Shown one piece after another: positions 593 to 23,158 of a DNA stretch of 64,000 bases. Numbering within the stretch: the stretch's first letter is position 1; each line of letters opens with the position of its first letter. This DNA is from a virus, in IMG/VR virus record IMGVR_UViG_3300045988_132810, positions 1 to 64,000 of that record; one strand, given 5' to 3'. The position numbers and the translations under genes are program-made. Under the pieces are notes generated by a model that saw only the letters and a program-made list of their open reading frames with translations, searched no databases and was not told where the DNA came from.

Positions 593-1567
593 ATGACAGG
601 CAGAACTGAAAAGGAAATTGCATCTACGAAGAAAATGCAAGAAAAATTGAAAGAGCTCCCTAAAATCTTTTCTGAATTTTATTATTATATGTGTTCGACA
701 AAATCTTATACAACAGTCGAAAGATATGTTGCATATGTAAGGGAATTCGCAGAATTTTTGAACGACGGGGACATTCCAAACAATTTTTACAAGAGAGTTG
801 CTCCGCTAGATATCAATAAATATTTCGCCGCAATGAAGAATAAAGAAAGCGCACATGGGCATTATAATACAAGTGACAGTATTCGTGCGACAAAATGGTC
901 TGCGTTGAATACTTTCTTTGGATTTCTTAAGAGTAATAACTATATTGCAAATAATCCAATGGAGAGAACGGAGCGTCCAAAAGTTCAAGATAGACCAGAC
1001 GTTGCTTACTTGACAGAAGAAGAAATTCAGGCAATGCTGGACAATGTTAACAAACTTGCAAGCACAAAAATGAAAAACAGAGATCTGGCGATTATTATGC
1101 TTGGACTTACAACTGGACTTCGTGTATCAGCACTTACGCAAATTGATATTAGTGATATTGATTTTGAGAATAATACTATTAAGGTAATTGAAAAAAGAGG
1201 AAAAACATGTAACATTCTTATTGGCGACAAGGTAAAAGAACAGATTGAATTGTGGCTCCAAGATAGAAAAAAATATTTTAGTATGACAGATTCCGATGCA
1301 CTATTTATTTCTAGTTTTAAGAAAAGAATTACTAGAGATGGGATCAGAGTAATTCTAGAAAAGTATAGCAAAGGTGTTATAAATAAGCATGTTACTCCAC
1401 ATGTGCTAAGGCATTCTTGTGCAACAAATCTGTATGAAAAAACAGGAGATATTTATCTTTGTGCAACAGTGCTAAATCATAAAAATATTGCTACTACTAT
1501 GAGATATGCAAATATGTCTAAAGACAAAAAACAGCAAGCTGCAAACATTTTGGATGATATGATTTAA
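593..1567 (+). CDS. tyrosine recombinase (XerC/XerD-like integrase family)
   Basis: 324-aa ORF after GGAGGG RBS; catalytic signature visible: TGLRVSAL (Arg), HVLRHSCAT (His-x-x-Arg), TTMRY (Tyr). Confidence 0.85.
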   Translation: MTGRTEKEIASTKKMQEKLKELPKIFSEFYYYMCSTKSYTTVERYVAYVREFAEFLNDGDIPNNFYKRVAPLDINKYFAAMKNKESAHGHYNTSDSIRATKWSALNTFFGFLKSNNYIANNPMERTERPKVQDRPDVAYLTEEEIQAMLDNVNKLASTKMKNRDLAIIMLGLTTGLRVSALTQIDISDIDFENNTIKVIEKRGKTCNILIGDKVKEQIELWLQDRKKYFSMTDSDALFISSFKKRITRDGIRVILEKYSKGVINKHVTPHVLRHSCATNLYEKTGDIYLCATVLNHKNIATTMRYANMSKDKKQQAANILDDMI

Positions 1568-1573
1568 TAAGAT

Positions 1574-1602
1574 TTGACAGTTATAATTTTGTACTGTACA
1601 AT
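1574..1602 (+). promoter_or_regulatory. sigma-70-type promoter
   Basis: TTGACA-17 nt-TACAAT; spacer holds the window-wide motif in reverse orientation (TATAATTTTGTACTG). Confidence 0.6.
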
Positions 1603-1635
1603 AAAAGAAACGAGAAATTCACAAGGGGTGATCAT

Positions 1636-2556
1636 GTGTTTTACAATGAGGAGGTAAAGATACAATTTATAAACGATTATAAAAGAAGTAGAATTGTAGC
1701 AGAGACTTCATTAACAGGAATGTTTAACAAAACATATAAATACGAACAACAAAAAGGGAAAGATTGTAATAGCTTTTCAAGAAAAGAAATATTAGCGATG
1801 TATAAAGAATTTGATGCAAAATCTGTGCATGTGCTTGAAAATTACAATGTATATTTGAAAAGCTATTCTATTTTCTGTATGCATCATGGTTTTTGTAAGA
1901 AAAATAATTATGCAGATATAAATAAAGCTATGCTGCTTCAATGCCTTGATACAGAAACATTGAATCAAAAATTCTTAACAAGGGAACAGCTTGATGATAT
2001 AGAAGATGAGTTATATAACTATACAGATAAAGCGCTTTTAGAATTGCTATGGGAAGGCATTAGCGGCAAAAGTATGGAAGATATTGTTGCTCTTAATAGA
2101 AGTATGATTAGCGAAGATAAAAAATATATATGTTTTAATGATGGACGAAAAGTTAAATTATCATCAAAATTATATAATTATTTAGACAAGGCATTTTCAG
2201 AAAAAGAATATATGTGTTATGGAACAACTATTAGGGTTAAAAAATTAATTGGAGATGACTGTCTCTATAAAGAAATGGATAATGCATATACAGTAGACTC
2301 AGACGATAAATTTTTCCGCTGGGTATATAGAAGAGTTCAAACATATAGAAAACATGTAGATATGCCATTGCTGACAATGAAGGCACTTGCTGCATCTGGG
2401 CTATTGTATAAAATTAAAAATGCAATGGAAAAAAACAATCTTGGATTAAGAGAATTTTTATATACAGAAGAAGGCAAAGCATTGGCGCAACAATATGGAT
2501 ATAAGTTAAATTCATATGTTGATGTTATTGCTAATAAATTTATAGATTTTGTATAG
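1636..2556 (+). CDS. hypothetical protein downstream of recombinase
   Basis: 306-aa ORF, GTG start 7 nt after AAGGGG RBS; family not recognised by eye. Confidence 0.6.
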   Translation: MFYNEEVKIQFINDYKRSRIVAETSLTGMFNKTYKYEQQKGKDCNSFSRKEILAMYKEFDAKSVHVLENYNVYLKSYSIFCMHHGFCKKNNYADINKAMLLQCLDTETLNQKFLTREQLDDIEDELYNYTDKALLELLWEGISGKSMEDIVALNRSMISEDKKYICFNDGRKVKLSSKLYNYLDKAFSEKEYMCYGTTIRVKKLIGDDCLYKEMDNAYTVDSDDKFFRWVYRRVQTYRKHVDMPLLTMKALAASGLLYKIKNAMEKNNLGLREFLYTEEGKALAQQYGYKLNSYVDVIANKFIDFV

Positions 2557-14475: not shown

Positions 14476-14503
14476 CTTTCAACACATGGAAGGACGACAA
14501 AGA

Positions 14504-15250
14504 ATGAATGACAAAATTGACGATATTGGAATTTATACTGATATACATGAAAGTGGTAAAAGAAATAAGGATGGTAATAAAATGTATTATGCCACCTGTA
14601 AAGTGTGTGGAACAATAGTAGAAAAGAAATTGGCCAATATCAAGCGAAGTAATAAAATTTGTTGTCACAAAACACAAAAAAACAATTTAAATAAGATTAA
14701 TGACATGCCAGTTGGCTGGATCAATAAATCAGATTTAAATAAAAAAATTTATGATACGTGGAAAGGAATGTGGAATAGAACAACTGAAAAATGTTGGGGG
14801 AAATACCCTACTTACATAGGGACAACAGTTGATGATTCATGGAGATTGCTTAGTAATTTTGTAAATGATATCAAAGAATTGCCCGGATATGAAGAGTGGG
14901 CAAATTCTAAAAAAAGAATGATGATGCTAGATAAAGACACATTGGTTGATGGGAATAAACACTATAGCAAAGAAACTTGTTGTTTTATCACAGCTTTAGA
15001 ATCGAGCAAAGACGTGAATAAAAGGCATCCTGATAATACTTTGAAAGCAAATGCAGCTAGTGTTAAGAAGTGTTCTATCCCAGTAAAAATAATGAATAAG
15101 CAAACTTTCGAAGAAAAGATTTTCCCTTCACTTCGAGAAGCGTGTAGAGTAATGGGATGGAATGAAGGTAATGCTTGGAAGGTAGTAAGTGATAAGTATC
15201 CATATAACAGTTCTGTAGAAGGATGGACAATAGAACAACTAAATGAATAA
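14504..15250 (+). CDS. putative free-standing homing-endonuclease-like DNA-binding protein
   Basis: ATG 14504 after GAAGGA RBS. N-terminal zinc-finger-like CKVCGT..CCHK resembles the N-terminus of the 10821 HNH-AP2 protein. C-terminal FPSLREACRVMGWNEGNAWKVV looks like a nuclease-associated HTH module; no clear catalytic motif seen. Confidence 0.4.
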   Translation: MNDKIDDIGIYTDIHESGKRNKDGNKMYYATCKVCGTIVEKKLANIKRSNKICCHKTQKNNLNKINDMPVGWINKSDLNKKIYDTWKGMWNRTTEKCWGKYPTYIGTTVDDSWRLLSNFVNDIKELPGYEEWANSKKRMMMLDKDTLVDGNKHYSKETCCFITALESSKDVNKRHPDNTLKANAASVKKCSIPVKIMNKQTFEEKIFPSLREACRVMGWNEGNAWKVVSDKYPYNSSVEGWTIEQLNE

Positions 15251-15282
15251 ACGCAATAAAGAAAATGTTGAAACATAAATGA

Positions 15283-15361
15283 AACACTGAGGTCGGAAAG
15301 GCTCCCGACGCTCCTCTTATAGGGAATCTGAGATGCAGGATACGCCGCCCTGCCAGTGTTT
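15283..15361 (+). ncRNA. degenerate tRNA-like cloverleaf (loop CT-TAT-AG), probable tRNA pseudogene
   Basis: Acceptor-like AACACTG/CAGTGTT, arm GTCGG..CCGAC, arm GCAGG-ATACGCCGC-CCTGC; poor anticodon stem, no CCA, no T-loop consensus. Confidence 0.4.
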
Positions 15362-15520: not shown

Positions 15521-15605
15521 GCAGGAGTCCCATAGTGGTCGATTGGAGCGGTTTTGTAAGCCGCCAGCTTTGCTCACGTCGGTTCGAATCCGACCTCCTG
15601 CTCCA
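15521..15605 (+). tRNA. tRNA-Tyr(GUA): tRNA-Tyr(GUA), copy 2, CCA encoded
   Basis: Acceptor GCAGGAG/CTCCTGC, anticodon arm GCGGT-TTGTAAG-GCCGC, variable arm AGC-TTT-GCT, T arm GTCGG-TTCGAAT-CCGAC, T-CCA. Confidence 0.75.
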
Positions 15606-15613
15606 CATTATAT

Positions 15614-15729
15614 GCAAGTAAGGAAGAATTGGTCTTCTCTCATTTAACAAAGCTGAGATACAAAAAGATCGCTACTTTGGAAACGTTCGCTTTGGGGAAA
15701 TGTGTGTTCGAATCACACTACTTGCTCCA
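15614..15729 (+). ncRNA. 116-nt tRNA-like gene with expanded anticodon/variable region
   Basis: Canonical acceptor GCAAGTA/TACTTGC plus T-CCA, D arm GAAG-AATTGGT-CTTC, T arm GTGTG-TTCGAAT-CACAC. The middle part is TCTCA-(11-nt loop TTTAACAAAGC)-TGAGA followed by a 43-nt insert. Confidence 0.5.
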
Positions 15730-15853
15730 GCGAGGTAACGTCACTTCCATCACGTAGCACAGCGGATAGCAAATAGTGAAAGAGATATGTGCACCTAGGC
15801 TCTTGTTTGAACTATTTGGTTATGATAAAGAAGGATTGGAAACCTCGCTTTAT

Positions 15854-15943
15854 GAGAGCGTAACTCAGTTGGTAGAGTTTTATAGCGTGAAGGGATATGC
15901 TATTGAATACCCTTAGTCGCCAGTTCGAGTCTGGCCGCTCTCA
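15854..15943 (+). ncRNA. 90-nt tRNA-like gene with the anticodon arm replaced by a possible pseudoknot
   Basis: Canonical acceptor GAGAGCG/CGCTCTC, D arm ACTC-AGTTGGTA-GAGT, T arm GCCAG-TTCGAGT-CTGGC. The 38-nt centre has interleaved pairings ATAGC/GCTAT and AAGGG/CCCTT. Confidence 0.5.
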
Positions 15944-15970
15944 TTAAAATATATATTAGGAGAAATAGTT

Positions 15971-16225
15971 ATGGCAATTAAAATAATTAGTCAAGGAAAA
16001 GATTTTGATAATCCTATATTTACCCAGCGATGCCCTAAATGCGATTGCGTATTTACCTATCAGAATGAAGATGTTCATAGAGAGCCTACTGGTAGATATT
16101 ATAGAGATTTTGAAGAGTATTTTATTAAAATGGACGATTGCGACAGACAAGAAATTGCAGTATCTATTGAATGTCCTTGGTGCCATAAAAAGATTCATGT
16201 AAAAGATGAATATAAAAAAATATGA
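15971..16225 (+). CDS. small zinc-ribbon protein inside the tRNA array
   Basis: 84 aa after AGGAG RBS; CPKCDC...CPWCH. Confidence 0.55.
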   Translation: MAIKIISQGKDFDNPIFTQRCPKCDCVFTYQNEDVHREPTGRYYRDFEEYFIKMDDCDRQEIAVSIECPWCHKKIHVKDEYKKI

Positions 16226-16349: not shown

Positions 16350-16424
16350 GGGCCTGTAATTCAATAGTAGAATATACGCCTTTTAAGCGTACTACGGACG
16401 GAGCGTAACCGCCCAGACCCACCA
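16350..16424 (+). tRNA. tRNA-Lys(UUU): tRNA-Lys(UUU), CCA encoded
   Basis: Acceptor GGGCCTG/CAGACCC (one C-A mismatch), D arm ATTC..GAAT, anticodon arm TACGC-CTTTTAA-GCGTA, T arm GG(A)CGG-AGCGTAA-CCGCC (atypical). Confidence 0.7.
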
Positions 16425-16942: not shown

Positions 16943-16977
16943 GGGGGCCTAGAGCTTTCTAGGCTCCCATTTTTTTG
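16943..16977 (+). terminator. rho-independent terminator closing the tRNA array
   Basis: GGGGGCCTAGA..TCTAGGCTCCC hairpin followed by TTTTTTT. Confidence 0.8.
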
Positions 16978-16991
16978 TGCAATTTGCACAA

Positions 16992-17020
16992 TTGACAAAA
17001 CGAAAATATATGATATGATA
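16992..17020 (+). promoter_or_regulatory. sigma-70-type promoter
   Basis: TTGACA-16/17 nt-TATGAT/ATGATA. Confidence 0.5.
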
Positions 17021-18909: not shown

Positions 18910-20013
18910 ATGATTTACCTAGATAACGCTGCTACATCTCCAATTTGTGAAGCCGCAAAGAATATTATCCTTGACAATCTTGACGAATATTACAATCCAA
19001 ACAGTTCATATGAGGATGCTCGTGGAGTAAAGATTAAGGTCGAGGAAGCACGTGAAAAGATTGCGGCACTAATTGGAGCACAACCTGACGAGATTTACTT
19101 TACTTCTGGTGGATCTGAAGCAAATTCATGGGTTTCAAATCATGATTTTACACTAGCATCTAACATTGAGCATCATTCTATTGATCCAGACTATAAATTC
19201 AAGGTCGATTATAGAGGAATGGTTGATATAGAGAAATTTGAAAAAAGAGTAAATGAATTGCAGAATAATTATTTCGGTATTAGTCCGGGTATTGCTTCAT
19301 GTATGATGGTAAATAATGAACTTGGAGTTATTGAGCCAATTGAAGAACTAGCAAAGATTGCTCATGATAATCATATGTTGTTCCATACAGATGCAGTTCA
19401 GGCATTCCCTCATATGAAAATTAATGTAGAAGAGCTTGGCGTAGATATGTTGTCATGCTCTGCTCATAAGTTTGGTGGGATTAAAGGATGCGGATTCCTT
19501 TATATCAAAGATGGAATTCATATTCATCCTTTAATTAATGGTGGAAGCCAAGAAAGAGGAATCAGAGGTGGCACAACTAATGTCCTTGGTGTCTTGGCTA
19601 TGGCTGCTGCGCTAGAAGATACGACAACCCATATGAATGGAAATAATGCAAAAATTGCACGTTTATCCAAGAAGATTAAGGATAATTTATTGAATGTAAA
19701 AGGTGTCACAATTAATGGGGCAACAGATAAAAAGCAGTATTTAGACAGTATTTTGAACTTTAGAATTGATGGTGTACATGGTTCAGATGTTGTTGCGATG
19801 GCTGACGAATTTGGGATTGCTATTAGTGCTGGTTCAGCTTGCAATGAAGGTGATGCCATTCCATCTCATGTGCTAAAAGCAATTGGTTTGTCTGACGAAG
19901 AGGCACTAAGTAGCATTCGTGTATCTCTTGGAAGATATAATACAGAAGAAGAAATTGATTATGCTTGTGTGATTCTTCCAAAGGTCATTGAAAGATTGAG
20001 ATCACTTAATTGA
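18910..20013 (+). CDS. cysteine desulfurase (class V aminotransferase, NifS/IscS-like)
   Basis: IYLDNAATSP N-terminus; PLP-lysine context SAHKFGGIKGCGFLYIK; 367 aa. Confidence 0.85.
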   Translation: MIYLDNAATSPICEAAKNIILDNLDEYYNPNSSYEDARGVKIKVEEAREKIAALIGAQPDEIYFTSGGSEANSWVSNHDFTLASNIEHHSIDPDYKFKVDYRGMVDIEKFEKRVNELQNNYFGISPGIASCMMVNNELGVIEPIEELAKIAHDNHMLFHTDAVQAFPHMKINVEELGVDMLSCSAHKFGGIKGCGFLYIKDGIHIHPLINGGSQERGIRGGTTNVLGVLAMAAALEDTTTHMNGNNAKIARLSKKIKDNLLNVKGVTINGATDKKQYLDSILNFRIDGVHGSDVVAMADEFGIAISAGSACNEGDAIPSHVLKAIGLSDEEALSSIRVSLGRYNTEEEIDYACVILPKVIERLRSLN

Positions 20014-20029
20014 TAGTACAAAATTATAG
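20014..20029 (+). promoter_or_regulatory. conserved intergenic motif copy (TAGTACAAAATTATAG)
   Basis: Starts 1 nt after the desulfurase stop codon; 14 nt upstream of ATG 20044. Confidence 0.6.
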
Positions 20030-20043
20030 AAAGGATTTAATAA

Positions 20044-21207
20044 ATGATTATCAATAATAAAAGAGCGCTTGCATACATCCAGCATGTAACCAACATTCGT
20101 CCTATTGATGGTGCAGATAATATTGAACAGTGTAATGTACTTGGATGGAATCTCATTTGTAAGAAGGGTGAATTCCATGAAGGCGATCCTTGTGTTTATA
20201 TTGAGATTGACTCAAAAGTCCCTGAGAGAGAGGAATTTGAATTCCTTCGTGCAAAAGGTTTTAAGGTCAAGACAATGAAGCTTGGTAAGTTTAATTGTAT
20301 CAGTCAGGGCCTTGCCATGCCACAGTCTGCATTTAAAGAGTTGGCAGGGCTTTCAGAGGGGACGGATGTAACCGACATTCTTGGAATTAAGTATTCCGTA
20401 CAAGAGGACAATGCTCGTAAGAGCAATGGCGATCCTAATGCAAAATATAAATCTATGGCCGCTCGTCACCAGAAAATCTTTAAAAAGAAGTGGGCACGTT
20501 GGATGATGCGTCGTTCTTGGGGGCGTAAGGTTATGTTTTTCTTCTTCGGCAAGAAGAAGGATAACCCTCGTGGTTTTCCTTCATTTGTTTCAAAGACAGA
20601 TGAAGAGCGTGTAGAAAATCAGCCTTGGCGTATTAGTGATGGCAAGACTTATATTGCTACAGAAAAGCTAGATGGCACTTCTTGTACTTATGCACTTGAA
20701 CGAAAAGGGCGTAATAAGTTTGAATTTTATGTTTGTTCTCGTAATGTAAGACAGCAGGACGAGAAGCAAGAGTGTTACCATGACCATAACATCTATTGGG
20801 ATTTGGCGTTCAAGTACAATATCGAACAGCATTTGAAGGATATCCTGAATCAATTTCCTAAGCTTAAATGGGTATGCATTCAAGGCGAGGGCGTAGGCTC
20901 TGTTCAGGGCAATCCACTGAAGCTCAAGGAAGATGATTTATATGTTTTTAACTTTAAAGATTCTGAAAGGGGAAGATATAATTCTATTATTGGTAGAGCT
21001 ATTATTGAAAAGATGGGCATGAAATGGGTTCCCATTCTTGGAAAAGTTCAAATGCCAAACACTATGGAGGAACTTAAGGCGCTTGCAACTGGCAAGTCCA
21101 AGGTGAATCCAGATGTAATGCGTGAAGGTATTGTGTACCGTTCTTTGGATGGTAGTGATAGTTTCAAAAATGTCAGCCGCGAGTATTTGCTAAAACATAA
21201 TAATTAA
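20044..21207 (+). CDS. RNA ligase, DRB0094 (Rnl5)-like: N-terminal OB-like domain plus nucleotidyltransferase domain
   Basis: Adenylylation motif I ATEKLDGTS; N-terminal IDGADNIE..VLGW..GEF..GD..VYIEID pattern typical of this family. Confidence 0.75.
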   Translation: MIINNKRALAYIQHVTNIRPIDGADNIEQCNVLGWNLICKKGEFHEGDPCVYIEIDSKVPEREEFEFLRAKGFKVKTMKLGKFNCISQGLAMPQSAFKELAGLSEGTDVTDILGIKYSVQEDNARKSNGDPNAKYKSMAARHQKIFKKKWARWMMRRSWGRKVMFFFFGKKKDNPRGFPSFVSKTDEERVENQPWRISDGKTYIATEKLDGTSCTYALERKGRNKFEFYVCSRNVRQQDEKQECYHDHNIYWDLAFKYNIEQHLKDILNQFPKLKWVCIQGEGVGSVQGNPLKLKEDDLYVFNFKDSERGRYNSIIGRAIIEKMGMKWVPILGKVQMPNTMEELKALATGKSKVNPDVMREGIVYRSLDGSDSFKNVSREYLLKHNN

Positions 21208-21218
21208 AGGAGAATGAG

Positions 21219-21461
21219 ATGAAAGATTGTATTGAATTAATTGTTGGATTTATCATCTGGTGCATTATTAAACCTATCATTATTTTCGGTGCTGGTTGGT
21301 TTGGCGGTTGGATCCTGATGAATATTGTTGGTGGCGCAGTTGCAACTGGACTGAATACTTTGTTTGAAACTACTAGATTTATGCCAGACATAATTCCTGT
21401 TGTGTGCGGTACATTAGCGGTTATTGGAAATTTTTTTAAGACGACTGTAAGTAAAGAGTGA
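21219..21461 (+). CDS. small integral membrane protein
   Basis: 80 aa, three hydrophobic segments; AAGGAG RBS. Confidence 0.55.
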   Translation: MKDCIELIVGFIIWCIIKPIIIFGAGWFGGWILMNIVGGAVATGLNTLFETTRFMPDIIPVVCGTLAVIGNFFKTTVSKE

Positions 21462-21468
21462 GAATATA

Positions 21469-22284
21469 ATGAACTATCATTCAGATAATTGGATAATGGA
21501 CGGTGTTCGAGAGCATTATAACGAAGCTCTCGAATACTTTCCAGAAGATAGAATTGTGGGAATCTTCTATCAAGGTAGTGGTAATTATGGACTTGATTAT
21601 GAAGAGTCAGATGTTGATACTAAACTTATTGTAGCGCCGACATTTAAGGATATTGCAATGAACAAAAATCCCGTTAGTACAACTCATATTCGAACCAATG
21701 ATGAGCATACAGATTGGAAGGATATTAGACTTTATATCCAGACATTTAGGAAGCAAAATTTAAACTTCTTAGAAATCTTGTTCACTCCTTATAAAATCAT
21801 CAATCCCATGTATGAAAATCAATGGAATAGACTTATTAATGCCAGAGAAGATATTGCACATTATTCTCCAGTTCAAGCAATTAAGTCTATGCGAGGTATT
21901 GCTAAAGAAAAGTATTTTGCAATGGAGCATCATTATCCATCTCGTATGAAATTGATTAATAAGTTTGGATATGATCCGAAACAACTACATCATCTATTGC
22001 GAGTAGAGGAGTATATTGCAAGATATATCAATCATGTGCCATATGAAAAATGTTTGATTTCTGAAAGTCCAGAATATTTAGTAGAGGTCAAGAAAGGCTT
22101 ATATAATCTAGAAGACGCACGAGCACACGCTAATGACGCGATCGACCATATTGATTTACTATGTAATGATTTCTTAAAAAATGAATACACAGTGGATGCA
22201 AAAATTGATGAGCTGTTAAATAGCGTACAGTACGAGATTATGAAGATTGCAATTAAGAAAGAGATCGGTGATGAAAATGAATAG
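21469..22284 (+). CDS. Pol-beta superfamily nucleotidyltransferase (RNA-ligase-associated type)
   Basis: GSGNYGLDYEESDVDTK (G-S...D-x-D NTase motif); position next to the RNA ligase and kinase-HD genes. Confidence 0.65.
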   Translation: MNYHSDNWIMDGVREHYNEALEYFPEDRIVGIFYQGSGNYGLDYEESDVDTKLIVAPTFKDIAMNKNPVSTTHIRTNDEHTDWKDIRLYIQTFRKQNLNFLEILFTPYKIINPMYENQWNRLINAREDIAHYSPVQAIKSMRGIAKEKYFAMEHHYPSRMKLINKFGYDPKQLHHLLRVEEYIARYINHVPYEKCLISESPEYLVEVKKGLYNLEDARAHANDAIDHIDLLCNDFLKNEYTVDAKIDELLNSVQYEIMKIAIKKEIGDENE

Positions 22285-23158
22285 ACCAACTTTGATATTA
22301 CTTGTCGGGCCACCCGGCGCAGGAAAGACTACATATGCTGAAAAATATATCTCACAGCATGATAATACAGTTTATTTAAGCTCAGATGAAATCCGCAAAG
22401 AAATGTGGGGAAATGAAGCTATTCAGGGCGATAACAGTGAAATATTTAGTAGAATGCAGGCTAGGGCAGTTGATGGTTTGAATTTCGGCTATGATGTCAT
22501 TTATGACGCAACAAATATGACACGCAAGGATAGAGCAGGAATCATTTCAGTTTGTCCAAAGGTTGCTAAGATCGAATGTCATATTATCTGGGCCACAATT
22601 GAAACTTGTATTGAAAGAGATACTGCAAGAAAGCGTACAGTTGGTAAAGAAGTTATTGACAGAATGCTAAAGCGTTTTCACGCTCCTTATTATGATGAGG
22701 GGATTGACGAGATTAAGGTGATTGTGCCAAACAATTTTAATCATCAAAAATACATAGACGATTCTATGAATGCAATGAAGATCTCACATGACAATCCACA
22801 TCATACTTTAGACATTTACAATCATTGTGAGTCGGCATATAAGTATACTGTAAGTAACGATATGTGTGATAATACTATTGCACTTGCAGCATCCTTTCAC
22901 GATATTGGTAAACCATATGTCAAAACATTCATTGATGCAAAAGGTGAACCGAGTGATACTGCACACTACTATGGTCATCAATGCGTTGGAGCATGGATGG
23001 TATATGGTCTTGTTGTAGATAACATTAGAGTAGATATTGCTTGGCTTGTAAGCACTCATATGGCACCATTTCTTAATGAAAAGTATTATAGGAATTTGCC
23101 ATCATATTTAAAAACGTCTGTAGCTTTGCTTCATGAGGCAGACGTAGCGGCGCATTGA
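22271..23158 (+). CDS. P-loop polynucleotide-kinase-like domain fused to HD phosphohydrolase domain
   Basis: ATG 22271 overlaps the upstream gene by 14 nt; LVGPPGAGKTT Walker A; C-terminal FHDIGKP...HEAD HD signature. Confidence 0.7.
   Translation: MKMNRPTLILLVGPPGAGKTTYAEKYISQHDNTVYLSSDEIRKEMWGNEAIQGDNSEIFSRMQARAVDGLNFGYDVIYDATNMTRKDRAGIISVCPKVAKIECHIIWATIETCIERDTARKRTVGKEVIDRMLKRFHAPYYDEGIDEIKVIVPNNFNHQKYIDDSMNAMKISHDNPHHTLDIYNHCESAYKYTVSNDMCDNTIALAASFHDIGKPYVKTFIDAKGEPSDTAHYYGHQCVGAWMVYGLVVDNIRVDIAWLVSTHMAPFLNEKYYRNLPSYLKTSVALLHEADVAAH

What the first reader, a model, noticed from the sequence alone, without database searches (positions are those of the whole stretch)
15614..15943. tRNA-like genes whose anticodon arm is replaced by larger, possibly pseudoknotted inserts
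Seen: 15614-15729 (116 nt) and 15854-15943 (90 nt) each have a perfect 7-bp acceptor stem, a D arm and a canonical T arm (GUGUG-UUCGAAU-CACAC and GCCAG-UUCGAGU-CUGGC). Neither has a 5-bp/7-nt anticodon hairpin. In the second, the centre offers interleaved helices AUAGC/GCUAU and AAGGG/CCCUU, which is H-type pseudoknot topology with 3-, 4- and 6-nt loops. In the first, an 11-nt loop (UUUAACAAAGC) closed by UCUCA/UGAGA can pair its CAAAGC with GCUUUG 36 nt downstream, and the insert contains an imperfect 17-nt tandem duplication. Inference: these are either decayed tRNA genes or deliberate tRNA mimics that present the acceptor/T/D surface without an anticodon. Mimics of this kind could act as decoys or sponges for tRNA-binding nucleases, or as primers or tags.
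Basis: partly seen in the sequence, partly recalled or inferred. Interest (0 to 1): 0.65.

Follow-up and report, generated by a model that had tools for sequence, protein, structure and literature searches.

The report
Phage tRNA look-alikes with pseudoknot cores
Two genes in a gut phage's tRNA cluster encode tRNA-shaped RNAs with no anticodon arm; one belongs to a widespread, conserved phage RNA family in which a small pseudoknot sits where the anticodon arm should be, so it is a purpose-built tRNA mimic of unknown job rather than a broken tRNA.

Summary
Both elements exist as described. E2 (15854-15943) is not decayed. It belongs to a family of at least 50 distinct sequences from about a dozen phage lineages (AT-rich ~150 kb and GC-rich ~40 kb gut phages, one 210 kb phage). 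All members keep a canonical acceptor stem, D arm, T arm and 45-48 core. In all of them the anticodon arm is replaced by two interleaved helices. Both helices covary, including the pseudoknot helix AAGGG/CCCUU, which also occurs as AAUGG/CCAUU, AAGGA/UCCUU, AAACG/CGUUU and AAGCGG/CCGCUU. No anticodon, isotype or discriminator base is conserved. No single deletion restores an ordinary anticodon arm. Rfam holds no dedicated family, and the core motif had no true match in a scan of one genome per species (185,579 species). E1 (15614-15729, CCA encoded) has a tRNA frame well beyond chance, but it occurs only as 98-100% identical copies in one phage subclade. Its internal pseudoknot and its "tandem duplication" therefore cannot be tested. 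Function is inferred only. The array contains homing endonuclease genes and lies 4 kb upstream of an RNA ligase/kinase repair cassette. I favour a non-decoding, tRNA-processed RNA whose pseudoknot binds a tRNA-recognising protein, most likely a host tRNA-targeting defence enzyme.

The parts
15614..15729 (+). E1: 113-nt tRNA-like RNA plus encoded CCA. Acceptor 15614-15620 / 15719-15725, discriminator U 15726, CCA 15727-15729.
   Evidence: Sequence; frame scan against shuffles; about 58 near-identical copies among the fetched loci of sister phages
15623..15637 (+). E1 D arm: GAAG 15623-15626, loop AAUUGGU with GG, CUUC 15634-15637. Position 8 is A, not the usual U.
   Evidence: Sequence; frame scan D-arm criterion met
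15638..15658 (+). E1 hairpin UCUCA (15638-15642), 11-nt loop UUUAACAAAGC, UGAGA (15654-15658). Predicted only.
   Evidence: Sequence. Three independent single substitutions in sister copies break this stem.
15648..15694 (+). E1 candidate long-range pairing CAAAGC (15648-15653) with GCUUUG (15689-15694). It could form a pseudoknot with the hairpin or be part of one long irregular hairpin.
   Evidence: MFE and centroid folds both use this pairing; it never varies, so there is no comparative test
15702..15718 (+). E1 T arm GUGUG-UUCGAAU-CACAC
   Evidence: Sequence; frame scan
15854..15943 (+). E2: 90-nt member of a conserved phage tRNA-like family. Acceptor 15854-15860 / 15936-15942, discriminator A 15943, no encoded CCA.
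   Evidence: Rfam tRNA 43.2 bits with the centre skipped; own covariance model 111.3 bits, against 47 bits or less for ordinary tRNAs
15863..15878 (+). E2 D arm ACUC-AGUUGGUA-GAGU (A14, G15, G18, G19, A21 all present)
   Evidence: Alignments A2 and A4; pair counts
15882..15903 (+). E2 helix S1: AUAGCG 15882-15887 with UGCUAU 15898-15903. It encloses L1 UG (15888-15889), S2a and L2 AUA (15895-15897).
   Evidence: 5 of 6 pairs show changes on both sides across 50 sequences; variants listed
15890..15914 (+). E2 helix S2 (pseudoknot): AAGGG 15890-15894 with CCCUU 15910-15914. L3 UGAAUA lies at 15904-15909.
   Evidence: 98.4% paired, 3 of 5 pairs with changes on both sides, on an alignment fitted to S1 and not to S2; variants AAUGG/CCAUU, AAGGA/UCCUU, AAAGG/CCUUU, AAUGGG/CCCGUU, AAACGU/GCGUUU, AAGCGG/CCGCUU
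15915..15935 (+). E2 variable-loop equivalent AGUC (positions 45-48) and T arm GCCAG-UUCGAGU-CUGGC
   Evidence: GGUC/AGUC is conserved in all members. A45 occurs only with A10-U25 in the window clade and G45 with G10-C25 elsewhere; L112 and L170 are exceptions.
16943..16968 (+). Intrinsic terminator closing the tRNA/ncRNA array, followed by a strong promoter at 16992-17019. This implies E1 and E2 are co-transcribed with the tRNAs.
   Evidence: Consensus scan: 11-bp GC-rich stem plus T run. Inference only.

Best explanation
E2 and, less certainly, E1 are non-decoding tRNA-shaped RNAs. They are transcribed with the phage's tRNA array and matured like tRNAs (RNase P, RNase Z, CCA addition). The tRNA body acts as a processing and stability scaffold and presents the elbow and acceptor surface. 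In E2 the anticodon arm is replaced by a compact H-type pseudoknot: S1 of 5-6 bp, L1 of 2-4 nt, S2 of 5-6 bp that begins AA and ends UU directly before the 45-48 core nucleotides, L2 usually AUA, and L3 usually UGAAUR. This pseudoknot is the functional module. The most likely mechanism is that the RNA acts in trans by occupying a protein that recognises tRNA shape, with the pseudoknot giving tight or uncleavable binding where the anticodon arm would sit. On that view it is a decoy or inhibitor of a host tRNA-targeting defence enzyme. Shown: the family, its conservation, both helices, the canonical tRNA core, and the absence of a conserved anticodon, isotype or discriminator. Inferred: transcription and processing, action in trans, and the identity of the target.
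For: The family is real. Exact-core and relaxed pattern scans recovered it from IMG/VR and metagenome contigs. A covariance model separates 50 distinct members (66-116 bits) from every ordinary tRNA in the same loci (47 bits or less). Both central helices covary. The AU-rich core is almost identical in phages whose scaffolds are 48% and 60% GC, while the acceptor and T stems diverge with compensatory changes. That places the selected function in the core. It is not a decoder. ARAGORN's isotype calls are inconsistent. L1 varies in sequence and length, and the spacing from GAA to S2 varies by 0-3 nt. The base following GAA is U in most members, whereas functional tRNAs almost always have a purine at position 37 (textbook tRNA knowledge). 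One sister phage (L046) carries a normal tRNA-Phe(GAA) as well as E2. It is not an intron-bearing tRNA: no single deletion gives a 5-bp/7-nt arm in any of the 50 members. It is unlikely to need a specific charge, because the discriminator is A, U or G even among close relatives. The tRNA core is kept: U8, A14, G15, G18, G19, A21 and GGUC, with A45 found only alongside A10-U25. Conflict context: HNH endonuclease ORFs lie inside the array. An RNA ligase (PF09414), an RlaP-like nucleotidyltransferase (weak hit) and a PNK-like kinase sit at 20044-23158. Other tRNAs in this and related arrays are also remodelled. Published work shows that phage tRNA arrays counter tRNA-cleaving defences (PMC10264068, PMC11555353, PMC13096335, PMC13056530).
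Against: There are no expression, processing or binding data. No target is identified. No protein partner co-occurs across all clades. The downstream Zn-ribbon protein is found only in clade A and part of clade B, and a Lar-like Zn-ribbon ORF in 5 of 12 clades. Enzymes turn over, so a decoy would have to bind tightly or be abundant. A coaxially stacked H-type pseudoknot puts its two ends about 11 bp apart, which is hard to reconcile with both ends joining a canonical tRNA core. The true 3D arrangement is therefore unknown, and S1 and S2 could be alternative states rather than coexisting. The patterns used to collect most members fixed UGAA and, in one scan, AAGG/CCTT, so the conservation of those letters is partly by construction. 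The one scan that did not fix them still returned 41 of 46 loci with them, plus one variant without UGAA (L197). For E1 there is no comparative evidence at all.
Confidence: 0.38

Rival explanations
1. E2 is an 'armoured' but still decoding tRNA-Phe. On this view S2 is the true anticodon stem (27-31/39-43), L3 'U-GAA-NN' is the 3' side of the anticodon loop, and S1 is an added clamp that hides the loop from anticodon nucleases.
For: S2 abuts the 45-48 nucleotides exactly as an anticodon stem would, and UGAA is present in almost all members. The best-scoring ordinary tRNA against the family model is a tRNA-Phe(GAA), whose loop is UUGAAGA. Other tRNAs in these arrays carry inserts yet keep normal anticodon arms.
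Against: UGAA was fixed by most of the search patterns. The number of nucleotides between GAA and S2 is 0, 1, 2 or 3, not a constant 2. The position-37 equivalent is U in most members. L197 lacks UGAA. The 5' half of the loop is replaced by a helix strand. L046 has an ordinary tRNA-Phe as well. The discriminator is not fixed at A73.
Confidence: 0.1
2. The inserts are short introns, or segments processed out by the phage's ligase/kinase pair or a host enzyme, leaving ordinary tRNAs.
For: ARAGORN models E2 as a tRNA with an intron. An RNA ligase and a PNK-like kinase are encoded 4 kb downstream. For E1, one 41-nt deletion gives CUCAU-UUAACAA-AUGGG with anticodon AAC.
Against: No single contiguous deletion restores a canonical arm in any of 50 E2 members. 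Many members lack U33 in the S1 loop, where L1 begins CG, CA or AG. There are no group I intron or other Rfam hits. The centre is the most conserved part, which is unlike an intron. The E1 solution needs two G.U pairs and an unmodified-A34 anticodon, and I estimate about a 0.08 probability of finding one such solution by chance.
Confidence: 0.03
3. The elements are decayed tRNA pseudogenes. This is realistic only for E1: a tRNA disabled by insertion or duplication and carried along in a recently spread cassette.
For: E1 is confined to one subclade; sister phages have an ordinary 94-nt tRNA-Ser(GCU) in the same slot. It has A8 instead of U8. Rfam and ARAGORN do not detect it. The fold is not better than shuffles. 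Substitutions break UCUCA/UGAGA. Spacer2 beside it has a similar number of variable sites, 5 against 4.
Against: E1 keeps a perfect 7-bp acceptor, D arm, T arm, discriminator and CCA in all of about 58 copies. The acceptor and T-stem substitutions seen keep pairing, as A-U to G.U and U-A to U.G. Its divergence per site (0.43%) matches the neighbouring true tRNAs (0.10-0.46%) and is below the spacers (1.3-1.4%) and the adjacent ORF (5.4%). For E2 this rival is excluded.
Confidence: 0.15
4. The element is a scaffolded aptamer or regulatory element with a target unrelated to defence. Candidates include a small-molecule or ion sensor, a regulator or cofactor of a phage protein (Zn-ribbon protein, RNA-repair enzymes), or a tRNA-like punctuation signal that directs RNase P/Z cleavage of the polycistronic transcript.
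For: The topology and size resemble small ligand-binding pseudoknots. This is an analogy from general knowledge and was not tested. A homologous 76-84 aa Zn-ribbon ORF follows E2 in two otherwise unrelated phage clades. In ~40 kb phages E2 can be the only tRNA-like gene, lying between a ParB-methyltransferase and the small terminase gene.
Against: No riboswitch family is matched even at E<=10. The Zn-ribbon ORF is absent from most clades. A mere punctuation signal would not need a sequence-conserved pseudoknot.
Confidence: 0.22
5. Structural rival: S1 and S2 are mutually exclusive hairpins of a conformational switch, not a simultaneous pseudoknot.
For: Each helix can be extended at the other's expense. 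S1 extends to 8 bp (AUAGCGUG/UAUGCUAU) and S2 extends by UAU/AUA. MFE predictions choose one or the other depending on the homologue. Joining both ends of a coaxial pseudoknot to the tRNA core is geometrically awkward (inference).
Against: The loop lengths (2-4, 2-5 and 3-8 nt) are those of classical H-type pseudoknots and are maintained across variants. The extension pairs are not conserved in divergent members. Covariation cannot separate the two cases.
Confidence: 0.2

Closest known systems
Phage T4 RNAC and RNAD (species 1 and 2 RNAs)
   Same: They are small stable RNAs transcribed from a phage tRNA gene region alongside true tRNAs, and their role is still unknown (PMC3014915, PMC9697503). 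From my own memory, untested here: they are RNase P substrates with tRNA-like ends.
   Different: There is no sequence similarity: BLAST of the region against 50,697 phage records hit only one unannotated gut contig for E2. T4 infects a proteobacterium. No pseudoknot-for-anticodon-arm architecture is documented for them in the papers read.
Engineered 'tRNA scaffold' for recombinant RNA (Ponchon and Dardel 2007; own knowledge, not read here)
   Same: The architecture is the same: a tRNA body is kept for processing and nuclease resistance, and the anticodon arm is swapped for a functional RNA module.
   Different: That scaffold is man-made and joins the insert through a continuous stem. Here the element is natural, and the module is a pseudoknot whose 3' strand abuts the variable-loop nucleotides.
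Bacterial Y RNA-like YrlA and other tRNA mimics (mascRNA, plant-virus TLS, tmRNA tRNA-like domain)
   Same: They are non-decoding RNAs that copy the tRNA elbow and acceptor to engage tRNA-recognising proteins. YrlA genes sit beside RNA-repair operons (PMC7790460), much as E1 and E2 sit near a ligase/kinase cassette.
   Different: No Rfam hit to YrlA, Y RNA, tmRNA or TLS families, and no tmRNA by ARAGORN. In TLS the pseudoknot is in the acceptor stem. In YrlA the acceptor is replaced by the Ro-binding stem. E2 keeps a complete, free acceptor end.
Phage tRNAs that evade anticodon nucleases (T5 and T4 tRNA arrays against PrrC, PARIS, retron-Eco7/PtuAB, Septu, Schlafen)
   Same: The genomic setting (tRNA array with homing endonucleases) and the presumed selective pressure are the same (PMC10264068, PMC11555353, PMC13096335, PMC13056530).
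   Different: Those are decoding tRNAs with point changes in the anticodon loop or stem. E2 has no anticodon arm, so it would have to act as a decoy or inhibitor rather than as a replacement tRNA.
Type III antitoxin RNAs (ToxI and relatives) and their phage-encoded mimics (own knowledge)
   Same: They are ~35-nt RNA pseudoknots that inhibit an endoribonuclease by binding it, and phages are known to copy them.
   Different: ToxI occurs as tandem repeats next to its toxin gene. E2 is single-copy and embedded in a tRNA frame, with no tandem repeat and no sequence resemblance.

Membership tests
tRNA (Rfam RF00005 / canonical cloverleaf) | 7-bp acceptor stem, D arm with G18 G19, T arm with UUCRANY loop | tested here: met
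   E1 and E2 both pass the frame scan. For E2 these helices are 99-100% paired across 50 homologues.
tRNA (Rfam RF00005 / canonical cloverleaf) | 5-bp anticodon stem with a 7-nt loop (U33, purine 37) and a consistent anticodon | tested here: not met
   The Rfam alignment skips 35 nt in E2. ARAGORN isotypes are inconsistent. No deletion restores the arm in 50 of 50 members. E1 has an 11-nt loop plus a 43-nt extra region.
tRNA (Rfam RF00005 / canonical cloverleaf) | Score at or above the Rfam gathering threshold | tested here: inconclusive
   E2 scores 43.2 bits against a threshold of 29, but only with permissive filters and with the centre treated as an insertion; it was missed with the default filters. 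E1 is not reported even at E<=10.
Intron-containing tRNA (group I or bulge-helix-bulge type) | A removable insert in the anticodon loop that leaves a canonical tRNA, plus a group I core or BHB motif | tested here: not met
   No group I or other intron family in Rfam. No restoring deletion for E2. The centre is more conserved than the exon-like parts.
tmRNA | tRNA-like domain with G3:U70, internal tag ORF, several pseudoknots, ~300 nt or more | tested here: not met
   ARAGORN finds no tmRNA. Pair 3:70 is G-C in E2 and A-U in E1. The lengths are 90 and 116 nt.
YrlA / Y RNA | Ro-binding stem with a conserved bulged helix plus a tRNA-like module; matched by Rfam models | tested here: not met
   No Rfam hit at E<=10 in 15600-15960 or at the gathering threshold in the window and 8 loci.
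H-type RNA pseudoknot | Two helices in the order S1a-S2a-S1b-S2b, each supported by covariation, with loop lengths that can span the grooves | tested here: met
   For E2, S1 and S2 both covary, with loops of 2-4, 2-5 and 3-8 nt. Whether the helices coexist was not testable. For E1 the topology is possible but unsupported.
Known small pseudoknot riboswitches (preQ1-I/II/III, SAM-II/V, fluoride, guanidine-III) | Match to the family covariance model; position in a 5' UTR | tested here: not met
   No hit at E<=10. The element lies inside a tRNA frame, not in a 5' UTR.
CsrA/RsmA-sponge hairpin | GGA in the loop of a hairpin, conserved as a single-stranded motif | tested here: not met
   The window's loop reads AAGGGAUAU, but GGA is lost in L154, L156, L192 and L197, and those letters covary with S2b instead.
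Phage attP / tRNA-gene integration site copy | Identity to a host tRNA gene segment | tested here: not met
   The core pattern was found in none of the GTDB representative genomes except for one chance match inside a coding region.
Type III antitoxin RNA | Tandem repeats of a ~35-nt pseudoknot unit adjacent to an endoribonuclease toxin gene | tested here: not met
   No tandem repeat. The element is single-copy inside a tRNA frame. The neighbouring ORFs are an HNH endonuclease and a Zn-ribbon protein.

The most novel reading that the evidence does not exclude
E2-type RNAs are a previously undescribed class of phage anti-defence RNA. Each is a tRNA-shaped molecule in which a conserved pseudoknot replaces the anticodon arm. 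It docks into host tRNA-targeting immune nucleases (anticodon nucleases of the PrrC/PARIS/Septu/Schlafen kind, or acceptor-end toxins) as an uncleavable, tight-binding pseudo-substrate. E1 and the other insert-bearing tRNA frames in these arrays would be further, lineage-specific inventions built on the same scaffold principle.
Probability: 0.25. Interest if true: 0.85.

Novelty: new variant of a known kind. Interest (0 to 1): 0.66.

Why it matters
Phage tRNA clusters have held unexplained small RNAs since T4's RNAC and RNAD were found. They are now understood as anti-defence loci in a conflict centred on tRNA cleavage. A conserved, covariation-supported family that keeps the whole tRNA body but swaps the anticodon arm for a pseudoknot would be a natural version of the engineered tRNA scaffold. 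It would also be a candidate RNA inhibitor of tRNA-recognising enzymes. The family gives a defined 90-nt object for structure determination, pull-downs and defence-system screens. It also explains a recurring artefact: tRNA finders call these genes as intron-bearing tRNAs of arbitrary isotype, which distorts phage tRNA inventories and the codon-usage or recoding inferences drawn from them.

Tried and rejected
1. Megablast of the region against 50,697 phage records gave nothing. Sensitive blastn gave one unannotated gut contig for E2 and one skipping-rope hit.
2. One viral scan was wasted on a mistyped pattern with one N too many before GTTCGA.
3. The search for distant E1 relatives returned only the same subclade plus three chance matches in coding sequence.
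4. The Zn-ribbon ORF downstream of E2 is not a universal partner. It is homologous between clades A and B (29% identity) but absent from the other clades. Clustering of neighbouring ORFs gave no family shared by all clades. The best was a Lar-like Zn-ribbon ORF in 5 of 12 clades.
5. CsrA sponge and Shine-Dalgarno mimic: the purine run covaries with its partner and GGA is not conserved.
6. Known riboswitch, ribozyme, tmRNA or Y RNA: no Rfam hits.
7. attP or host tRNA copy: absent from representative bacterial genomes.
8. Intron: no restoring deletion.
9. My first divergence comparison was inflated by one locus (L043) with a non-homologous spacer. Recomputed without it, the case for purifying selection on E1 is weak.
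10. Six literature searches found no description of this architecture.
11. A short ORF starting at the AUG inside E2 was considered and dropped. The spacing to the purine run is 1 nt, and the frame is not conserved between clades.
Full report
Setting. The window is part of an AT-rich phage of about 150 kb from the human gut. Its DNA polymerase III alpha subunit is closest (53% identity) to that of Clostridium phage Amboise, which infects [Clostridium] innocuum. A cell-wall hydrolase and the rest of the gene content also fit a Bacillota host. Between 13.6 and 16.9 kb lies a plus-strand array of tRNA genes interspersed with HNH endonuclease ORFs and short unannotated spacers. The array ends at a strong intrinsic terminator (16943-16968), which is followed by a near-consensus promoter. 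About 3-4 kb downstream of E2 lie a cysteine desulfurase (18910-20013), an RNA ligase (PF09414, 20044-21207), an RlaP-like nucleotidyltransferase (weak hit, 21469-22284) and a PNK-like P-loop kinase (22247-23158). The last three form an RNA-repair cassette of the kind phages use against tRNA-cleaving defences.

The observation. E2 (15854-15943) has a perfect 7-bp acceptor stem, a textbook D arm (A14, G15, G18, G19, A21) and a textbook T arm. Rfam's tRNA model reaches 43.2 bits only by treating 35 central nucleotides as an insertion. ARAGORN labels it 'Phe gaa with intron' but gives its homologues Thr, Val, Ala, Tyr, Leu, His or '???', so these labels are arbitrary. E1 (15614-15729) has a perfect acceptor stem, a D arm with GG, the T arm GUGUG-UUCGAAU-CACAC, discriminator U and an encoded CCA. 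A purpose-written scan for acceptor, T-arm and D-arm frames finds E1 and E2 among the true tRNAs. Mononucleotide shuffles of the whole window give 0.26 acceptor-plus-T-arm frames on both strands, even before the D arm or CCA is required. E1 is less canonical than E2: it has A8 instead of U8, and neither Rfam nor ARAGORN reports it.

E2 is a member of a family. The 28-nt core pattern GTGAAGGGATAT-N5-TGAATACCCTT occurs in 26 IMG/VR contigs of two unrelated kinds: AT-rich ~150 kb phages like the window, and GC-rich ~40 kb phages. The first homologue came from blastn against GenBank phages (MT836871). Relaxed patterns run on the metagenome and viral collections, together with one pattern that fixed only the tRNA scaffold and left the centre free, raised this to about 160 loci and 50 distinct sequences in about a dozen lineages. 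These include a 210-kb phage (L156) and contigs from non-human samples. A covariance model built from 24 sequences scores members at 66-116 bits and every ordinary tRNA in the same loci at 47 bits or less. In GTDB's one-genome-per-species set the core pattern matched only once, by chance inside a coding region. Rfam 15 has no family for it. Six literature searches and three papers read for this purpose found no description.

Anatomy of the centre. A parse of all members gives the order: D stem, UU(U), S1a, L1, S2a, L2, S1b, L3, S2b, GGUC, T stem.
- S1 is 4-6 bp and takes many forms: AUAGC(G)/(U)GCUAU, AUCGC/GCGAU, ACAGC/GCUGU, CGGU/ACCG, UUAUCG/UGAUAA, GUUC/GAAC, CUUGC/GCAAG, GCUAU/AUAGC and GUGC/GCAC.
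- S2, the pseudoknot helix, always begins AA and ends UU. Its interior covaries: AAGGG/CCCUU, AAUGG/CCAUU, AAGGA/UCCUU, AAAGG/CCUUU, AAUGGG/CCCGUU, AAACGU/GCGUUU and AAGCGG/CCGCUU.
- The loops are 2-4 nt (L1, variable in sequence), 2-5 nt (L2, usually AUA) and 3-8 nt (L3, usually UGAAUR).

On the 50-sequence alignment, which was fitted to S1 but not to S2, 98.7% of cells pair, against 83.9% in column shuffles and 32-48% when partners are slid. S1 has changes on both sides in 5 of 6 pairs. S2 is 98.4% paired with such changes in 3 of 5 pairs.

What the conservation says. The tRNA body drifts with compensatory changes, and its GC content follows that of the host genome (48% against 60%). The AU-rich core stays almost letter-for-letter the same. 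Selection therefore acts mainly on the centre. The nucleotides after S2 (GGUC, or AGUC in the window clade) look like positions 45-48. A45 occurs only together with A10-U25, and G45 with G10-C25, with two exceptions (L112 and L170). This is what the 10-25-45 base triple of a canonical tRNA core predicts. S2 thus occupies the place of the anticodon stem. S1 pairs an insert at the 26/27 junction with an insert on the 5' side of what would be the anticodon loop.

There is a caveat that I could not resolve. If S1 and S2 stack coaxially, as in classical H-type knots, their outer ends lie about 11 bp apart, which does not fit both ends joining the core. Either the knot is bent (L2 is 3 nt), or the two helices alternate. 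Each helix can be extended at the other's expense, and single-sequence folds pick one or the other.

Not a decoder and not an intron carrier. No anticodon is conserved in the S1 loop, and many members lack U33 there. The tempting reading of L3 as 'U33-GAA', a caged tRNA-Phe, meets several obstacles. The spacing to S2 varies by 0-3 nt. The position-37 equivalent is U in most members. One member (L197) has no UGAA. Sister phage L046 carries a normal tRNA-Phe(GAA) besides E2. UGAA was also fixed by most of my search patterns, although the scaffold-only scan returned 41 of 46 loci with it. A brute-force test of every single contiguous deletion found none that yields a 5-bp/7-nt arm with U33 and R37 in any of the 50 members. 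The discriminator is A, U or G even among close relatives, and CCA is encoded in some clades and not in others. This argues against a conserved aminoacylation identity.

E1. Every copy found, about 58 across the fetched loci of one subclade, is 98-100% identical. The last viral scan, which allowed the stems and scaffold to vary, found no divergent relative. Sister phages have an ordinary 94-nt tRNA-Ser(GCU) in the same slot, so E1 plus the 124-nt spacer after it is a swapped-in cassette. The few substitutions keep the acceptor and T stems paired (A-U to G.U, U-A to U.G) but break UCUCA/UGAGA three times. Divergence per site is 0.43%. This is like the neighbouring tRNAs (0.10-0.46%) and E2 (0.46%), below the spacers (1.3-1.4%) and far below the adjacent ORF (5.4%), but the counts are small. 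An earlier figure was distorted by one non-homologous locus. The fold is no better than shuffles (z = -1.1), and the centroid uses CAAAGC/GCUUUG as an ordinary long-range helix. Tandem Repeats Finder sees no duplication. One 41-nt deletion would give an arm with anticodon AAC, but it needs two G.U pairs and is about what chance allows. E1 is therefore a tRNA-derived gene with an intact tRNA frame and an unverified interior. It could be a young functional mimic or a recently disabled tRNA, and I lean to the former at roughly 60:40.

Mechanism. The following are shown: a conserved tRNA body, a conserved pseudoknot in place of the anticodon arm, no decoding features, and co-orientation inside a terminator-bounded tRNA array. 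The following are inferred. The RNAs are co-transcribed and cut out by RNase P and RNase Z and receive CCA. The tRNA body serves as scaffold and as recognition surface. The pseudoknot is the business end and binds a protein that normally grips a tRNA's anticodon arm. I favour a host tRNA-targeting defence enzyme as that protein, for three reasons:
- The array has the hallmarks of an anti-defence locus, namely homing endonucleases and cassette-like gain and loss of small RNAs between sister phages.
- The RNA-repair genes lie next door.
- Other tRNAs in these arrays are remodelled at the elbow, D loop, variable arm or anticodon loop.

Published work supports the general picture. Phage tRNA arrays counter PrrC-, PARIS-, retron-, Septu- and Schlafen-type tRNases, and homing endonucleases amplify such loci (PMC10264068, PMC11555353, PMC13096335, PMC13056530). 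None of this identifies the target, and no protein partner is shared by all clades. My confidence in the functional part is therefore modest (0.38 for the whole statement), while confidence in the family and its structure is high.

Comparison with known systems. The closest natural precedent is T4's RNAC and RNAD, small RNAs from the tRNA region whose role is still unknown (PMC3014915, PMC9697503); there is no sequence similarity. In design E2 works like the engineered tRNA scaffold, in which the anticodon arm is replaced by an RNA of interest (own knowledge). It resembles YrlA, mascRNA, viral TLS and the tmRNA tRNA-like domain in being a non-decoding tRNA mimic, but it fails each family's defining features (see the membership table). 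It is a tRNA by its frame and not by its anticodon arm. I class it as a new variant of a known kind: a tRNA mimic with a novel, conserved module.

Verdict. E1's internal pairings and its duplication remain unsupported. The 'deliberate mimic' reading is right for E2 and open for E1. The function is unproven.

Noticed in passing
window 15282-15361 (+): A full-length skipping-rope RNA (RF02924, 77.9 bits) sits inside the tRNA array just after an HNH-like ORF (14486-15250). It is followed by a tRNA rather than the terminator described for this motif (PMC5737381). Many sister phages lack it at this position.
   Followed up: partly
window 16350-16421 (+): A tRNA-Lys(UUU)-like gene (Rfam 43.5 bits) that ARAGORN misses. 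Its T loop reads AGCGUAA instead of UUCRANY, and its D loop has no G18 G19, so the elbow is altered in the isoacceptor that anticodon nucleases most often target.
   Followed up: partly
window 15521-15605 (+): tRNA-Thr(UGU) of 85 nt with a ~15-nt extra variable arm and encoded CCA. This class II-like shape is unusual for tRNA-Thr. Related loci have tRNA(UAU) genes with ~24-nt variable arms (L095:1892-1984, L082:10488-10579).
   Followed up: partly
window 18910-23158 (+): A cysteine desulfurase (Aminotran_5), an RNA ligase (PF09414 plus OB domain), an RlaP-like nucleotidyltransferase (weak hit) and a PNK-like P-loop kinase lie in a row. The last three form a putative tRNA/RNA repair cassette beside the tRNA array.
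   Followed up: partly
L029:2132-2283, L016, L035:2390-2539, L041:2387-2536 (sister phages; absent from the window): A 149-150-nt tRNA frame (anticodon stem CCCGA/UCGGG, encoded CCA) whose anticodon loop carries a ~77-nt structured insert. The insert's basal helix shows compensatory changes (CGCUGCA/UGCAGCG against CACUACA/UGUAGUG).
   Followed up: partly
L025:7289-7387 and relatives; L156 (108-nt frame); L114:11424-11514; L112:1239-1321: Further oversize tRNA frames occur in phage tRNA arrays. One is a 99-nt frame with a 33-nt insert in the anticodon loop. Another is a 108-nt frame. A third is a tRNA with a hairpin inserted in the D loop. A fourth is an 83-nt frame with a non-standard centre directly after an E2 copy.
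   Followed up: no
L029-L033, L037, L039: between tRNA-Thr and E1 (window equivalent 15605/15606): A 114-nt insertion flanked by the direct repeat ACATT is present in some sister phages and absent in the window. It contains a helix with compensatory changes (CUCGU/ACGAG against CUUGU/ACAAG), so it looks like another mobile small-RNA module.
   Followed up: no
L040, L045, L047, L048, L051 at about 2850-2990 (upstream of the Zn-ribbon ORF): Relatives that lack both E1 and E2 carry, in E2's place, a T-arm-like hairpin (GACGG-UUCGAGU-CCGUC) followed by two conserved hairpins. This is an unidentified RNA in the same slot.
   Followed up: no
window 15730-15853 (+): The spacer between E1 and E2 is closed by a 7-bp helix (GCGAGGU/ACCUCGC) and is well conserved (5 variable sites in 124 nt). 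Its fold is no better than shuffles (z = +0.86). In L043 it is replaced by ~450 nt that contain another tRNA-like frame.
   Followed up: partly
window 15971-16225 (+); L001:3348-3578: An 84-aa protein with two CxxC pairs (phrog_2834, unknown function) follows E2. A 29%-identical homologue follows E2 in the unrelated GC-rich clade B but not in the other clades.
   Followed up: yes
window 593-2556 (+): Two adjacent tyrosine-recombinase (integrase-like) genes in a phage of about 150 kb.
   Followed up: no
L001:2555-3000: In the GC-rich clade B phages, a ~440-nt GC-rich, apparently highly structured non-coding stretch lies between tRNA-Gln and the E2 copy. There was no Rfam hit at the gathering threshold.
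   Followed up: no
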